A DNA stretch of 51,307 nt from Plasmodiophora brassicae (lineage: Eukaryota). The notes beneath the pieces were generated by a model. The model worked only from the letters and a program-made list of their open reading frames with translations. It did not search any database and was not told the origin of the DNA. The position numbers and the translations under genes are program-made. Below, one piece after another: positions 2,848 through 7,083 of this stretch (position 1 is the stretch's first letter; the number at the start of each line of letters is the position of its first letter). The stretch covers positions 1,240,001 through 1,291,307 of the forward strand of contig CP145415.1 in the NCBI GenBank assembly GCA_036867785.1. The letters are read 5' to 3'.

Positions 2848-3714
2848 CTAGACCACGTTGTTCACGATGTGCTCCTCTGTTGAGGTGCTGAGACCCCGGG
2901 CCTTCTGCGGGACCGTCGGCCTGTCGGTCCTGGTGGGACGGACCGGATGCGCAGCGAGATCTCTGCTCGATTTCAGGGACAGCAAATACATGGACATGAA
3001 GCAGGCGGGAACCAGGGTGACAAACGCGTTCAGCGTGCTGATGATGTTCGTCGGGAACACGTTCAGCAGAATCAGGTAGGACGCCTGGACGAAGAAGGAG
3101 AAGGTGGCCAGCGATTCCTGTTCGCCCATGATTTTCGAGATGATCTGCCGCGTCTGCTGGCTCTTCATGGTGCCCAGCTGCCGCATTGAAAGGTAGAGCC
3201 GACCGACGATCATGCAGGCGATGAATGCGTCAAACACGAGGTCACCGACTTTCTGCAGGTAGCTGGTGGCCAACGGGCTCTGCGTCAGGCAGACGCCGTT
3301 GCTCGACGTGGTCGTGTAAAGGAACGCACCATAGACGGCCTCGATGCTGGCGCGTATAAAAAAGCTGACAGCAATTACAGCAACCAGATACGATCGTCGC
3401 ATATATCGGGCGTTGAGATGGTACACGATCTGGAGCTGGAACGCCCAGACGGCCGCAAACTGCAATGCCTGCACAGGGAACACTGTAATGATCTTGAGCC
3501 TGCAGTTTGGAACCAGGTAGTAATCCCACAGGAAGGACTGAATCTGTAGTTCGGCGAGGGATACCGCGATCACGATGCAGGTCCACCTGTGCCATCGAGT
3601 GTGAATGCGTCGGGTCATGACGACAATCACAACGAAGCAGGCGCCGAACCCGGCCGCCATGCCGCGAATGAACTCAGTCAGTAGCTGGTCCGCGGTGAAC
3701 AATGGCTTCGACAT
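2848..3714 (-). CDS. Intronless seven-transmembrane (GPCR-like) protein
   Basis: About 288 aa from ATG 3714 with ~7 hydrophobic segments. Cys residues in the predicted first (PNC) and second (GVC) extracellular loops, and a polar C-terminal tail. Confidence 0.65.
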   Translation of the reverse strand: MSKPLFTADQLLTEFIRGMAAGFGACFVVIVVMTRRIHTRWHRWTCIVIAVSLAELQIQSFLWDYYLVPNCRLKIITVFPVQALQFAAVWAFQLQIVYHLNARYMRRSYLVAVIAVSFFIRASIEAVYGAFLYTTTSSNGVCLTQSPLATSYLQKVGDLVFDAFIACMIVGRLYLSMRQLGTMKSQQTRQIISKIMGEQESLATFSFFVQASYLILLNVFPTNIISTLNAFVTLVPACFMSMYLLSLKSSRDLAAHPVRPTRTDRPTVPQKARGLSTSTEEHIVNNVV

Positions 3715-4129
3715 CCCGCTGTACCCTTGTGCAGGCGTGCGTGAGCATAGCCACAATAGCAGACTCTACTATACTGCTACAGCACTTCCACCGACTGCCC
3801 TGTCACTGAGTCGCGGCTTTCCCTATCAGGTGCGCGTGAACCTGGAGGTGCGCCCACCCAGTCACAGGGACCTCCAGGTGCGCGCACCTCCAGGTTCGCC
3901 AACTAAGTGAAAATGAGTCATCTGGGGCTCTGTGACATACGAGAGCCAGCAGCCTCCGTTACGTAAAAATGCAATACGTATCTGCAATTTGAATTTCGCG
4001 CGGGGTATCATTGCCGCCGTTCATGTCCGCTTCATCATTCATCGCCTATACCCTTGTCACGGATTCGCCTGTCGCCTGGCCACGATTCTTTGCACTCAAA
4101 TCACCGTGACCGGCTGATACCGCCGATCG

Positions 4130-4752
4130 GCTAGCGTCCACTTCGTATCGTTCCAGAACGGGCTGTTGCCGTTTATGCACGCGTTCAGCGTCAAGCATGG
4201 ATTTGTTATCGCACGCAAAGCACAACACGAATGATTCGGCGAAGGCGGTGCAACATTTCGGAGAGGAAAAGGTCGTTCAGAGGGGTTATTATTTCTCCTG
4301 CAGCTCTAGGCTCTCATATTGGAGGCTGTCCGTTTCATGTCGACTTCACATACGTCTTCACAGACCGGCGATACGTCGTAGAGAAGGACAACACGGTTCC
4401 GCACAGAAACGCTCTTCAACATCTCTTGTTGTTGTCGGAATTTTATTCAAGCAGAAGGACGCTGAACGGACTACCGAGGAACGGGAAGCCATTCTGGAAT
4501 TGGCTCCTTTTGTTAGCATTGGCACCTCCCGTGTGCAACGTCGACGCTGGCCGATGATTGGTTTCGACCGCAAACTGCTATACCGCTTGAAAGCAAAGCG
4601 TCGTGAGATTGCATTTGCCTCCGACCGAGACGCCATCAACCGCTTCATGGAGGAAGGCCAGAAGATTCGGGATGCCGGTGGAGTGTTCGATATTCGCTTT
4701 GACGATTGCCTACGTATTGAGGAAGTTCTCGTCCAGAACCCATCAGTGAAAG
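4130..4752 (+). mobile_element. Degenerate Mutator-like (MULE/FAR1) transposase remnant
   Basis: Frameshifted pieces appear in FAR1/MULE order: HFVSFQNGLLPFMHAFSVKHGFVIARK, YYFSCSSR, GCPFHVDFTY..RYVV, then GGVFDIRFDDCLRIEEVLVQNP, which resembles the segment preceding the MULE catalytic core. Family assignment is by motif recall. Confidence 0.55.
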
Positions 4753-4888
4753 TATCGAACACTCCACCGGCATCCCGAATCTTCTGGTCTTCCTCCATGA
4801 AGCGGTTGATGGCGTCTCGATCGGAGGCAAATGCAATCTCACGACGCTTTGCTTTCAAGCGGTATAGCAGTCTGCGGTTGAACCCGAT
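4557..4888. repeat. Long inverted repeat (hairpin): 136-bp arms, 60-bp loop
   Basis: 4557-4692 is the reverse complement of 4753-4888 with 6 mismatches. The same peptide LLYRLKAKRREIAFASDRDAINRFMEE appears in both + and - ORFs. Confidence 0.95.
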
Positions 4889-4914
4889 AGCACAGAGTGT
4901 CGCCTCATCCAGAG

Positions 4915-7083
4915 ATGGAGTACGACGACCGTATATTGGCCACGTTAGCACATGCGCGGACGCCGTGGTGGGTGCACCCACGGAGTTGTTCGGCGGCAAT
5001 GGACACGAAAGCCAGATCTCGCAGCGACGGCCACAGGTCCAGGTCACGCTCGCGGTCCCCGGGTAGGAGGCCGACGTTGGCACACTGTCATTCAACTGCA
5101 CGTGTATCGATTGCTGACACTGCAGTTGCAGACCACAAGCGCCATCGACGAAACCGGGAGCCATCCCTCGAACGGGACGCGCGACGCAAGGCCAAGAAGG
5201 AGGCAAGACGTCATAGCAAACAGTCTGGCGCCTTTGGGTATACCGATGACGCCAACCCGTTCGGCGATCCATCATTGTCGAAAGTATTCGTCTGGAAGAA
5301 GAAGCACAAGGCCGAATTGGATGCCGGTTAGCCTGCGCTTTGGCGATCGTAATGCCCACTCATTCTTCGCGTTACGGCTATGCACAGGAACGCCCGTATC
5401 GAAGATTGAAAAGAAGGTTAAACGTAGGCAGCAGGAGTTGCGGGATGAAATCGAGCGTATCAAGCAACGCAAAGAGGAGCGCGAGATCGAGAAAGAGCAG
5501 ATGGAGGAGATGAAAATGCAGATCGCACGCGAAATGGAACGCGATGCGAACGCCGACTGGGATCGGAAAGAAGAAGAATTTCTTAGGGAACAGGTATGGA
5601 GTTTGGGGTCATCGATTGATAATGTACCTGACACTCTACGTGCGTCATCAGCAACGAATTGTCGTCGCGCGTCGCATTCGGGAACAGCGGCAGAAACCTT
5701 CGGACCTGCTGGCACAGAATTTGTTTGTTCTGGAGTTGGATGGGAGGAAACCTACGACACCTGGACATGGCCAGGACGTCGTTGATCACGATACGTTCGA
5801 CCTTATAGATCCGATCGCTGTCTTTCGCGACCTAGGGCAGCAAGAATTGCTGGAGCTCTTAAAGGATGTTCAGGACCAGATTGAGAACGGGGAACATGTC
5901 GAGTATTGGTCAGCACTTAGCGTTATCTGCGAGGACGCCCTCGTGGCGAGTGCCGACTCGAACCTGATCGACCCCGTTCGGTCTGATCTCGAAAAGATAT
6001 TCCATGTAAGGGACACAGTGTAGAAGAACCATCGGCCGTATGCCTGACGCACGACACAGGAGAAGAGCGTTCAGGACCTGCGCAACCTGAAGGACAAGAC
6101 CACGGCCAAAGTTGCTGGGCTAGACGCCGACGATTCGGTAGCTGTCGATGTCGATTATTGGCAGTCTCTGCTGCCTTTAATGGACCTTGCCATTGCTAAA
6201 GCCTATCTGCGCGAATTCTACAATAACTTGGTCCAGATGCGTCTCCAGCAGTTGGCTCAGGATGAGATGCAACTTGCAGGTTTGTCCGATTATCTGACTG
6301 TCAGCCATCCCAAGCGATAACCCGTCCGGTTCCGTGCAGGTTGCGAGTCGCATGCTGTCAACAGTGGTTTGCGGAGCCCAGTTCAGTTCGTCGACGAGGA
6401 GCTGTCGCGTACTGCCATTGCTCCTGCAGATGACATGGCATCGTTACGTGAGCAACGCGCTTCTATTGTCGCCGAGGAATTTGCCAAGTTCAGTGAGAGC
6501 CGGGGCCGACTCGTTCCTCATCAAAAGAAACTCGAGGTACGTTTGCTCAGTGATCCCCAATGCAGAACGTCCCGGCGTCTAACTCCGCGTGACGAAGGTG
6601 TCTGCTGCTGCATTCGATGCGAACAACCTGATGAATACGATGACCGAGGACGAGCAACAGTTCTCGGATGTTGTCCAGTTGGCAAGTGACGGGACTGTTC
6701 CTTCGTGGGCTGACAAGTACAGGCCTCGCAAGCCGAAGTTCTTCAACTGTGTCAAAGCCGGGTACGAGTGGTCGAAGTACAATCAGACGCACTATGATCG
6801 GGAAAATCCGCCGCCCAAAGTCGTTCAAGGCTACAAGTTCAACATATTCTATCCGGACCTGCTTGACCCGTCAGTCGCTCCAACGTTCACGAAGTTGAAG
6901 ATACCAGACGATCCAGACTTTTGCATTCTACGATTCTCGGCCGGACCACCGTACGAGGACATTGCCTTCAAGATCGTCAACAAGCCGTGGGAGAGCTCGC
7001 AAAGGCATGGGTTCCGAAGCAAGTTCGAGAGAGGCGTCCTCTGCCTTTACTTCAACTTCAGGCGCATTCGATACCGAAGATAA
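4915..7083 (+). CDS. cactin: Cactin (spliceosome-associated), multi-exon
   Basis: RS-rich N-terminus, GYTDDANPFGDPSLSKVFVWKKK, a coiled coil, and the C-terminal domain KYRPRKPKFFN..GYEWSKYNQTHYD..PPPKVVQGYKFNIFYPDL..AGPPYEDIAFKIV..LYFNFRRIRYRR. Confidence 0.95.

What the first reader, a model, noticed from the sequence alone, without database searches (positions are those of the whole stretch)
4130..4888. Mu killer-like inverted duplication of a MULE transposase relic directly upstream of cactin
Seen: 136-bp arms (4557-4692 and 4753-4888) with a 60-bp loop. The 6 mismatches argue against a read fold-back artefact. The left arm continues a frameshifted FAR1/MULE-like frame, and the right arm ends 26 bp before the cactin ATG. 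Established: maize Mu killer is an inverted duplication of part of MuDR whose hairpin transcript silences the family. Inference: cactin 5'UTR or divergent promoter transcription could express this hairpin, or the stem could regulate cactin itself.
Basis: partly seen in the sequence, partly recalled or inferred. Interest (0 to 1): 0.8.

Follow-up and report, generated by a model that had tools for sequence, protein, structure and literature searches.

The report
Folded-back transposase relic upstream of cactin
A broken leftover of a Mutator-type transposase gene in the clubroot pathogen ends in a 136-base inverted copy of itself just upstream of the cactin gene; the repeat is real, but it looks like a DNA-repair scar and there is no evidence yet that it acts as a transposon-silencing hairpin.

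Summary
Arms 4557-4692 and 4753-4888 (136 nt, 6 mismatches, 60-nt loop) are real, and contigs from two independent DNA studies bridge the loop/right-arm and right-arm/cactin junctions. The organism is Plasmodiophora brassicae or a very close relative, and the window is a chromosome end.

The left arm lies in a pseudogene (about 4142-4752, at least 3 frame changes). It matches residues 3-172 of a 738-aa P. brassicae paralogue whose relatives carry ZSWIM1-3 RNaseH-like, MULE and SWIM domains. The relic stops exactly where the inverted copy begins.

The best reading is a fold-back (snap-back or template-switch) repair scar at the break that truncated a MULE-type gene. It now sits in the divergent promoter region between an upstream gene and cactin.

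The Mu killer-like function is not shown:
- RNA contigs cover only 4251-4676, at very low depth.
- Spliced cactin RNA contigs begin at 4974-5009, downstream of the arm.
- None of the published P. brassicae miRNAs lies in the hairpin.
- No hairpin 21-mer pairs with cactin.

The idea is not dead, because this species has AGO and a Drosha-like nuclease but no RdRP, and the source of its siRNA precursors is unknown. Interest is modest.

The parts
4142..4752 (+). Pseudogene relic of a MULE/ZSWIM-type transposase-like gene (N-terminal ~23% only). Frame pieces: 4142-4216 (frame c), 4233-~4310 (frame a), 4321-4410 (frame b), ~4401-4751 (frame a).
   Evidence: tblastn: P0002 residues 3-172 at 4233-4751, E 2e-65; P0034 residues 85-109 at 4142-4216 in another frame. 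Frame b 4321-4410 is 77% identical to P0002 residues 28-57. Nothing in the window matches P0002 residues 173-738.
4557..4692 (+). Left arm: the original copy, inside the relic's reading frame (about P0002 residues 108-153)
   Evidence: It keeps the paralogue's residue at all 3 polarisable differences (D, K, G against N, R, D on the right arm).
4693..4752 (+). Loop: continues the relic's frame (IRFDDCLRIEEVLVQNPSVK) up to the truncation point
   Evidence: Homology to P0002 ends at residue 172, at 4751.
4753..4888 (-). Right arm: inverted copy of 4557-4692, starting exactly where the relic is cut off
   Evidence: Read on the minus strand it gives IGFNRRLLYRLKAK...EEDQKIRDAGGVFD. DNA contigs 4709-4871 and 4842-5900 in X10 and X5.
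4889..4998 (+). Spacer between the right arm and the probable cactin start. It holds the upstream in-frame ATG at 4915; the earliest laid cactin RNA contig starts at 4974.
4999..7083 (+). Cactin gene (first three splice joints at 5061/5131, 5325/5387 and 5590/5649, all GT..AG)
   Evidence: Pfam Cactin_mid (E 1.3e-14 and 1.6e-06) and CactinC_cactus (E 1.3e-57). Spliced contigs in X15 and X16.
3834..3904 (.). Small palindromic element that is multi-copy in the genome, about 240 bp upstream of the relic. Whether it is related to the relic (for example a TIR remnant) is unknown.
   Evidence: Arms 3838-3858 / 3877-3897. DNA contig depth 1203 against 267 (X10) and 600 against 69 (X5), with loose ends to other flanks. 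Only this one copy in the window.
2848..3826 (-). Upstream, divergently oriented gene (305-aa ORF 2848-3765, no Pfam family). Its RNA contigs reach 3785 (X15) and 3826 (X16).

Best explanation
This is a structural scar. A copy of a Mutator-superfamily (MULE/ZSWIM/FAR1-like) transposase-type gene was broken after codon ~172. The broken 3' end folded back on its own strand, or the polymerase switched template. It copied 136 nt of the sequence lying 60 nt upstream in inverse orientation, and the end was then joined to the DNA in front of cactin. The relic has since picked up at least 3 frame changes and the arms 6 mismatches.

It sits in the ~1.15-kb divergent promoter region between an upstream gene and cactin, about 46 kb from a telomere. 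It is at most very weakly transcribed. It has no demonstrated function, and any small RNAs it yields would be incidental.

Shown: the repeat, its reality in independent data, the pseudogene and its family, and the breakpoint coinciding with the arm. Inferred: the fold-back repair mechanism and the lack of function.
For: - The inverted copy begins at 4753, the base after the last position homologous to the paralogue (4751/4752). No sequence for residues 173-738 exists in the window.
- The loop is the relic's own continuing reading frame.
- The relic is dead: frames c, a, b, a. It lacks every conserved catalytic-type residue of the family (D185, D244, C263, H266, E355 in alignment A2).
- All 3 polarisable arm differences are derived on the right arm, and 4 of the 6 mismatches cluster at its outer end. 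That fits a copied, possibly error-prone, end (not significant: p = 0.125).
- A second repeat with the same anatomy (an ORF running through the left arm and loop, then its inverted copy) lies at 26299-26483 / 26525-26709. This suggests a recurrent DNA-level process.
- RNA: spliced cactin contigs start at 4974 and 5009. The relic has contigs only at 4251-4676 (X15, depth 5.3-6.1) and 4410-4579 (X16, depth 8.8).
- No Table S8 miRNA of PMC13547706 lies in the hairpin (by eye). The 12-nt arm motif is absent from its supplements.
- 0 hairpin 21-mers match elsewhere in the window at 3 or fewer mismatches.
Against: - P. brassicae has working RNAi (two AGOs and a Drosha-like RNase III that cuts long dsRNA) but no RdRP. 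Small-RNA loci are mainly intergenic, then TEs, and the source of siRNA precursors is stated to be unclear (PMC13547706; abstract, sections 2.2 and 3 read). A genomic hairpin is just the kind of precursor that would be needed.
- There is some RNA cover on the relic, including 120 of the 136 nt of the left arm, in runs of two studies.
- An apparently intact paralogue exists as a possible target.
- The repeat is held by runs of 5 studies, although the species is reported as largely clonal (abstract start of 10.64898/2026.10.14.759018 in a search listing).
- Microhomology at the presumed priming site is minimal (one A:T pair next to a G.T; read), so the fold-back mechanism is not proven.
- siRNA and phasiRNA loci of the published study are given only as coordinates of another assembly and could not be mapped.
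Confidence: 0.6

Rival explanations
1. Mu killer-like silencer. A transcript starting in the relic or its upstream flank reads through both arms and folds into a 136-bp stem. The Drosha-like PbDRL cuts it into 21-nt siRNAs, which AGO uses against mRNAs of intact family members such as PBTT_08695.
For: Near-perfect stem (-291 kcal/mol, z = -36.7). It derives from a Mutator-superfamily gene. An intact paralogue keeps the family's conserved D, D, E, C..H and SWIM-like residues. The RNAi machinery has no RdRP, and long-hairpin 'miRNA' precursors up to ~970 nt and a 'palindromic genomic region' giving small RNAs are reported (PMC13547706). Low-depth RNA contigs reach into the left arm. EDTA counts 600 Mutator copies, 1.57% of the PbJS genome (Table S5 passage).
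Against: No contig of any RNA run was seen on the loop or right arm (a hole, not proof). The hairpin is not among the published mature miRNAs. The arms are 136 nt against about 2 kb per arm in Mu killer, and they contain no TIR. The only known intact relative is 84% identical in protein over the region, with 6 of the 45 arm codons differing, so runs of 21 identical bases may be few. Its DNA could not be fetched. Mismatches are accumulating in the stem.
Confidence: 0.15
2. Cis-regulatory role for cactin. The repeat acts as part of the cactin promoter or of a long 5' UTR isoform (cruciform DNA, RNA stem, or local chromatin silencing).
For: The right arm ends 26 bp before the first in-frame ATG (4915), 85 bp before the first base of a laid cactin RNA contig (4974), and 110 bp before ATG 4999.
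Against: The cactin RNA contigs laid start downstream of the arm and carry high contig depth in both RNA runs (about 950; a poor measure). No hairpin 21-mer pairs with cactin. A 60-nt loop makes cruciform extrusion unlikely (general knowledge, not tested).
Confidence: 0.05
3. Assembly or read fold-back artefact.
For: Fold-back chimeras are common in long-read data (general knowledge). No laid contig covers 4677-4708.
Against: Short-read-derived contigs of two other studies reproduce the loop/right-arm and right-arm/cactin junctions and the arm-specific letters with 0 differences. 14 runs from 5 studies hold 82% or more of the words.
Confidence: 0.02

Closest known systems
Mu killer (Muk) of maize
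   Same: A natural inverted duplication of part of a Mutator-superfamily transposase gene, sitting next to a host gene whose transcription could read through it (abstract start of PMC3440606 in a search listing).
   Different: Muk carries two TIRA copies plus part of mudrA, gives a ~4-kb hairpin RNA, and is genetically shown to silence MuDR. Here the arms are 136 nt of internal coding sequence without a TIR. No read-through transcript, small RNAs or silencing are shown, and the known intact relative is only 84% identical in protein.
Ac killer 1 (Ack1) of maize
   Same: [quoted passage not shown]
   Different: Ack1 arose by alternative transposition of an active element. Here the breakpoint anatomy points to fold-back repair of a truncated gene copy, and no small RNAs are shown.
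Long-hairpin 'miRNA' and palindromic small-RNA loci of P. brassicae (PMC13547706)
   Same: Same organism. Intergenic hairpin-forming loci, with listed precursor spans from about 60 to about 970 nt, processed by a Drosha-like enzyme.
   Different: This hairpin is not among the Table S8 mature sequences (by-eye comparison). Whether it is among the siRNA or phasiRNA loci could not be checked, because those are given only as coordinates of another assembly.
Fold-back (snap-back) inverted duplications at DNA break repair junctions; young miRNA genes born by inverted duplication of target genes
   Same: An inverted copy abutting a breakpoint with a short spacer; a hairpin whose arms are still recognisably coding sequence.

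Membership tests
Mu killer-type transposon-silencing inverted duplication | Inverted duplication of part of a Mutator-superfamily transposase gene | tested here: met
   (arms both translate to the paralogue's residues ~108-153). Family.
Mu killer-type transposon-silencing inverted duplication | The duplicated part includes the element's terminal inverted repeat or promoter | tested here: not met
   The arms lie wholly inside the reading frame. No TIR was identified. The multi-copy palindrome at 3834-3904 lies outside the arms.
Mu killer-type transposon-silencing inverted duplication | A hairpin transcript spanning both arms, driven by a flanking promoter | tested here: inconclusive
   RNA-run contigs cover 4251-4676 and 4410-4579 only, at depth 5-9. 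None spans the loop or right arm. Contigs show neither strand nor ends.
Mu killer-type transposon-silencing inverted duplication | Small RNAs from the arms | not testable with these tools
   Only the published mature-miRNA list could be compared: none matches.
Mu killer-type transposon-silencing inverted duplication | Near-identical active target elements, and trans-silencing of them | not testable with these tools
   One intact-looking paralogue, 84% identical in protein over the region. Its DNA was not obtainable.
Mutator-superfamily (MULE / ZSWIM1-3 / FAR1-like) transposase-derived protein | RNase H-like MULE catalytic domain | tested here: not met
   For the relic itself: Pfam finds nothing in the window frames, and the relic ends at residue 172, before D185, D244 and E355. 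For the family: P0002 scores just under the thresholds (PF21056 24.3 against 27.2 bits; PF10551 23.5 against 27.6). 15 of 25 scanned relatives hit PF21056 at E <= 0.01, 5 of them above the gathering score; 6 hit MULE, all below it; 9 hit nothing; 1 hit unrelated families (5 of the 30 hits, the shortest, were not scanned).
Mutator-superfamily (MULE / ZSWIM1-3 / FAR1-like) transposase-derived protein | SWIM zinc finger | tested here: met
   For the family only: PF04434 is precomputed on P0033, and a conserved CxC...C block is seen in A2. Absent from the relic.
Mutator-superfamily (MULE / ZSWIM1-3 / FAR1-like) transposase-derived protein | N-terminal FAR1/WRKY-GCM1-type zinc finger | tested here: inconclusive
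   Pfam FAR1 (PF03101) is not reported for P0002 or any of the 25 relatives. A C-x5-C-x25-H-x-H pattern with conserved C24, C30 and H56 is seen in A2; equating it with the WRKY-GCM1 pattern is recalled. In the relic this segment is out of frame and reads H-R-N.
Mutator-superfamily (MULE / ZSWIM1-3 / FAR1-like) transposase-derived protein | Terminal inverted repeats and target-site duplication (a transposon rather than a domesticated gene) | not testable with these tools
   No genome and no DNA of other copies.
Annotated P. brassicae miRNA loci (PMC13547706, Table S8) | The mature sequence lies in the hairpin | tested here: not met
   All rows Pb-miR001 to Pb-miR225 were read and compared by eye on their first 6-8 nt with both arms, the loop and its complement. 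The longest shared run inside the hairpin is 10 nt. The comparison was not computed.
Rfam miRNA precursor families | Score at or above the gathering threshold | tested here: not met
   MIR856 scores 96.6 and 94.6 bits on the two strands against 297 required. Three others are also far below threshold. This reflects the shape of a long stem.

The most novel reading that the evidence does not exclude
The locus is a natural Mu killer analogue in Rhizaria. A fold-back relic of a Mutator-type gene supplies ready-made hairpin dsRNA to an RdRP-less, Dicer-less RNAi pathway (Drosha-like PbDRL plus AGO) and keeps the remaining intact family member(s) silent. Together with the second folded-back ORF at 26299-26709, it would point to genomic inverted duplications as the unexplained source of siRNA precursors in P. 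brassicae.
Probability: 0.08. Interest if true: 0.65.

Novelty: new member of a known kind. Interest (0 to 1): 0.3.

Why it matters
As it stands this is a well-documented transposase pseudogene with a fold-back duplication, which is an ordinary kind of genome scar.

Its only wider interest is as a test case. A 2026 study found that P. brassicae makes abundant 21-nt siRNAs without any RdRP or Dicer, and says the origin of the dsRNA precursors is unclear. Genomic inverted duplications such as this one, and a second in the same 51-kb subtelomeric window, are concrete candidates that can be checked against public data. If they yield siRNAs against their parent families, that would extend hairpin-initiated transposon silencing, known from maize, to Rhizaria.

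Tried and rejected
- **Whole genome:** none is held for this window, so family copy number, TIRs and the paralogue's DNA could not be examined.
- **RNA holders:** no RNA holder is listed on record. Six runs guessed to be RNA hold 36-49% of the words. The two laid (X15, X16) carry spliced contigs, so they are RNA.
- **Holes in RNA cover:** no RNA contig covers 3908-4215 or 4677-4973 in X15 or X16. These holes prove nothing about silence.
- **Holes in DNA cover:** no DNA contig covers 4604-4708. This is probably graph collapse of the two arms (my inference).
- **X15 cactin contig:** it carries 935 unrelated letters before 5009. Its 30-nt loose end is absent from the window at 3 or fewer mismatches, so it is a chimeric contig or remains unexplained.
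- **Cactin start codon:** the search with the cactin C-terminal ORF listed 120 of 4942 hits, none from P. brassicae, so the annotated start could not be seen.
- **Pfam:** nothing on the relic frames and on 4142-4216.
- **Supplement motif search:** a 12-nt arm motif gave 0 occurrences. This is weak, because only one mature sequence per locus is listed.
[quoted passage not shown] A computed comparison of Table S8 with the window was left out because it would have needed typing sequences that are not the session's own; it was done by eye instead.
- **Rfam:** only sub-threshold long-hairpin miRNA models, scoring equally on both strands; rejected as homology.
- **Metagenome scan with P0002:** 67 pattern matches, none confirmed.
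- **Second inverted repeat's ORF:** no Pfam family. Atlas scores of 0.89 or lower to unnamed clusters, with retrotransposon-gag leads only at 0.76-0.77. Unresolved.
- **Nearest fragments:** cluster look-up of the closest fragments gave metagenome sources without organism names.

Full report
**Observation**

Aligning the left arm with the reverse complement of the right arm gives 6 mismatches, at left-arm 4559, 4562, 4566, 4573, 4625 and 4657. Four sit in the outermost 17 nt, so the core is 119 nt (4574-4692 / 4753-4871) with 2 mismatches. As RNA, 4540-4905 folds into one long stem at -291.1 kcal/mol, against -114.4 +/- 4.8 for 100 shuffles (z = -36.7; none folds as well). Only two inverted repeats of 40 nt or more exist in the 51,307-base window.

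**Is it real DNA?**

No whole genome is held for the window. The stretch 4100-5400 is held at 82-94% of sampled words by 14 DNA-type runs from 5 studies. I laid Logan contigs of two DNA runs from different studies (X10, X5) and two probable RNA runs (X15, X16) on 3600-5900.
- In both DNA runs an identical 163-nt contig covers 4709-4871 with no differences. It bridges the loop/right-arm junction.
- Contigs 4842-5900 bridge the right arm into cactin.
- Contigs 4160-4603 and 4178-4603 run into the left arm.
- The contig breaks at 4603, 4842 and 4871 are where a k = 31 graph would branch at the edges of the 119-nt core (my inference).
- All right-arm-specific letters and the four outer left-arm letters are reproduced in both DNA runs. 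The left-arm letters at 4625 and 4657 are reproduced only by the X15 contig 4419-4676.
- Nothing laid covers 4677-4708, so the left-arm/loop junction itself is not independently bridged.

An assembly artefact is effectively excluded.

**Organism and setting**

- The best protein relative of the relic is 'Uncharacterized protein PBTT_08695 [Plasmodiophora brassicae]' (P0002, 738 aa).
- The window ends in (TTTTAGGG)n, the telomere motif reported for P. brassicae (PMC6823432, passages; PMC13547706, passage).
- The window is therefore the last ~51 kb of a chromosome of P. brassicae or a very close relative, and the locus lies about 46 kb from the telomere.
- Downstream is cactin: Cactin_mid (E 1.3e-14 and 1.6e-06) and CactinC_cactus (E 1.3e-57).
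- Upstream is a minus-strand 305-aa ORF (2848-3765) whose RNA contigs reach 3785 and 3826.
- The relic and repeat thus lie in a ~1.15-kb divergent intergenic region.

**What the left side is**

Pfam finds no family in the window's own frames. The frame-a translation (P0001) finds P0002 at 84% identity over residues 100-214 (E 2.1e-51; 1 hit among 138 candidates of 381 aa or more). An exhaustive phmmer search finds 30 cluster representatives at E <= 1e-3, 8 of them at E <= 1e-10.

tblastn maps the relic as follows:
- P0002 residues 3-172 lie at 4233-4751 (E 2e-65).
- Residues 85-109 of a longer relative (P0034) lie at 4142-4216, in another frame.
- The middle piece 4321-4410 is in a third frame (77% identity to P0002 residues 28-57).

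The relic therefore changes frame at least three times. Nothing in the window matches P0002 residues 173-738.

Family evidence:
- P0002 scores just below the Pfam thresholds for ZSWIM1-3_RNaseH-like (24.3 against 27.2 bits) and MULE (23.5 against 27.6).
- Of the 30 representatives I scanned 25, leaving out the five shortest (P0008, P0016, P0022, P0028, P0029). 15 hit PF21056 at E <= 0.01, 5 of them above the gathering score. 6 hit MULE, all below it. 9 hit nothing, and 1 hit unrelated bacterial-type domains.
- A 53%-identical relative carries SWIM (PF04434, precomputed).
- All ten best Atlas clusters are MULE, SWIM or FAR1-type (scores 0.91-0.96; a lead only).
- In a 13-protein alignment, C24, C30, H56, D185, D244, C263, H266, E355 and a C-terminal CxC...C block are invariant or nearly so. 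Reading these as a zinc finger, a DDE triad and a SWIM finger is from memory.
- Pfam FAR1 itself was never hit.

The 'MULE/FAR1-like relic' reading is therefore supported as MULE/ZSWIM-type, through the paralogue.

**Anatomy of the duplication**

The loop (4693-4752) continues the relic's frame (IRFDDCLRIEEVLVQNPSVK), and homology to P0002 ends at 4751. The inverted copy starts at 4753, so the truncation point and the start of the inverted arm coincide.

The right arm, read on the minus strand, gives IGFNRRLL...EEDQ. The left arm gives IGFDRKLL...EEGQ, and P0002 has D, K and G at those sites. All 3 polarisable changes are thus on the right arm (p = 0.125, not significant).

The simplest history is a break inside the gene copy. 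The 3' end then snapped back, or the polymerase switched template, priming 60 nt upstream. It copied 136 nt backwards, and the end was joined to the DNA in front of cactin.

A second repeat has the same anatomy: 26299-26483 / 26525-26709, 185 nt, 98% complementary, 41-nt loop. An ORF runs through its left arm and loop before the inverted copy. Its origin stayed unidentified.

**Transcription and cactin**

X15 and X16 carry spliced contigs with GT..AG joints at 5061/5131, 5325/5387 and 5590/5649, so they are RNA.
- Cactin contigs begin at 4974 (X16) and 5009 (X15). In X15 the contig goes on into 935 letters that are not from this window.
Contigs cannot show a true 5' end.
- The search meant to show the annotated P. 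brassicae cactin listed no such row.
- On the relic there are contigs at 4251-4416 and 4419-4676 (X15, depth 5.3 and 6.1) and at 4410-4579 (X16, depth 8.8), all without differences. Cactin contigs have depth of about 950. Contig depth is a poor measure.
- The X15 contig carries the left-arm letters at 4625 and 4657.
- No RNA contig was seen on the loop or right arm. That hole is not evidence.
- No 21-mer of the hairpin matches any other place in the window at 3 or fewer mismatches. Pairing-based regulation of cactin by hairpin small RNAs is therefore excluded within this window.

**RNAi context**

PMC13547706 (abstract, sections 2.2, 3 and 4.5, passages, and the supplementary workbook read) reports the following for P. 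brassicae:
- mostly 21-nt, 5'-C, phased small RNAs;
- two AGOs and a Drosha-like RNase III that cuts long dsRNA;
- no Dicer and no RdRP;
- small-RNA loci mainly intergenic, then TEs;
- a 'palindromic genomic region' giving miRNAs;
- the statement that how siRNA precursors arise 'remains unclear'.

Its Table S5 lists 600 Mutator copies, 1.57% of the genome. This keeps the hairpin idea alive.

However, I read all rows of Table S8 (Pb-miR001 to Pb-miR225) and compared them by eye with both arms, the loop and its complement. None lies in the hairpin. The longest shared runs are 10 nt inside it, 12 nt just upstream (Pb-miR197 against 4539-4550), and 14 nt in the sense direction in cactin exon 2 (Pb-miR185), all compatible with chance. 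A 12-nt arm motif is absent from the supplements. [quoted passage not shown]

**Comparison with the known**

By the abstract start of PMC3440606 (search listing), Mu killer is a partial inverted duplication of mudrA with two TIRA copies. A ~4-kb hairpin RNA made by read-through from a flanking gene is proposed as the siRNA substrate.
- This locus shares the first feature: an inverted duplication of part of a Mutator-superfamily gene next to a host gene.
- It fails the TIR feature.
- It is inconclusive or untestable on the hairpin transcript, small RNAs, near-identical targets and trans-silencing.

It works like a Mu killer only potentially, and it should not be filed as one. Rfam gives only far-sub-threshold, strand-symmetric matches to long-hairpin miRNA models.

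**Verdict**

- Observation: confirmed.
- Structure and ancestry: confirmed.
- Function: not shown.

My odds:
- real repeat: 0.98
- MULE-type relic: 0.95
- fold-back or template-switch origin at the truncating break: 0.7
- some small RNAs from the arms: 0.3
- functional trans-silencer: 0.08
- cis-regulator of cactin: 0.05

It is a new member of a known kind. Interest is 0.3, chiefly as a ready test case for where an RdRP-less RNAi system gets its dsRNA.

Noticed in passing
window 50990-51307: The window ends in about 300 nt of (TTTTAGGG)n with a few variant units. This is the telomere motif reported for P. brassicae, so the window is a chromosome end.
   Followed up: partly
window 26299-26483 and 26525-26709: A second, longer inverted repeat (185-nt arms, 98% complementary, 41-nt loop) with the same anatomy as the finding: an ORF runs through the left arm and loop, then meets its own inverted copy. 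It has no Pfam family. Atlas leads are weak (0.89 to unnamed clusters; retrotransposon gag only at 0.76-0.77).
   Followed up: partly
window ~26900-38200 and ~40000-51000: A near-identical (99-100%) tandem duplication with 13.10-13.11 kb spacing next to the telomere. The segment holding the second inverted repeat (about 25.6-26.7 kb) has no counterpart in the second copy.
   Followed up: no
window 25044-25607, 26645-27078, 39147-40150: Minisatellite arrays of 32-33-nt units flank the duplicated blocks and give the strong GC and AT skew seen there.
   Followed up: no
window 3834-3904: A small palindromic element (arms 3838-3858 / 3877-3897). Its DNA contig depth is about 4.5 to 8.7 times that of the flanks in two runs, with a G>A variant at 3869 and loose ends leading to other, similar flanks. 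It is a dispersed repeat, about 240 bp upstream of the relic, and might be a transposon terminus.
   Followed up: partly
window 5009 (run X15 contig): The 4375-nt RNA contig carrying spliced cactin goes on upstream of 5009 into 935 letters that are not in this window (30-nt loose end: 0 matches at 3 or fewer mismatches). It is either a chimeric contig or an unexplained alternative 5' part.
   Followed up: partly
window 5033-5143 (run X16): An unspliced contig across the first cactin intron (depth 160, against 965 for the spliced form) suggests some intron retention or pre-mRNA.
   Followed up: no
window 32600-38400 and 45700-50400: Short conserved blocks (45-83 nt, 62-100% identical) recur at spacings of about 1.03, 1.06 and 3.43 kb inside each 13-kb copy. 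This suggests a small tandem gene or repeat family (families D13-D19).
   Followed up: no
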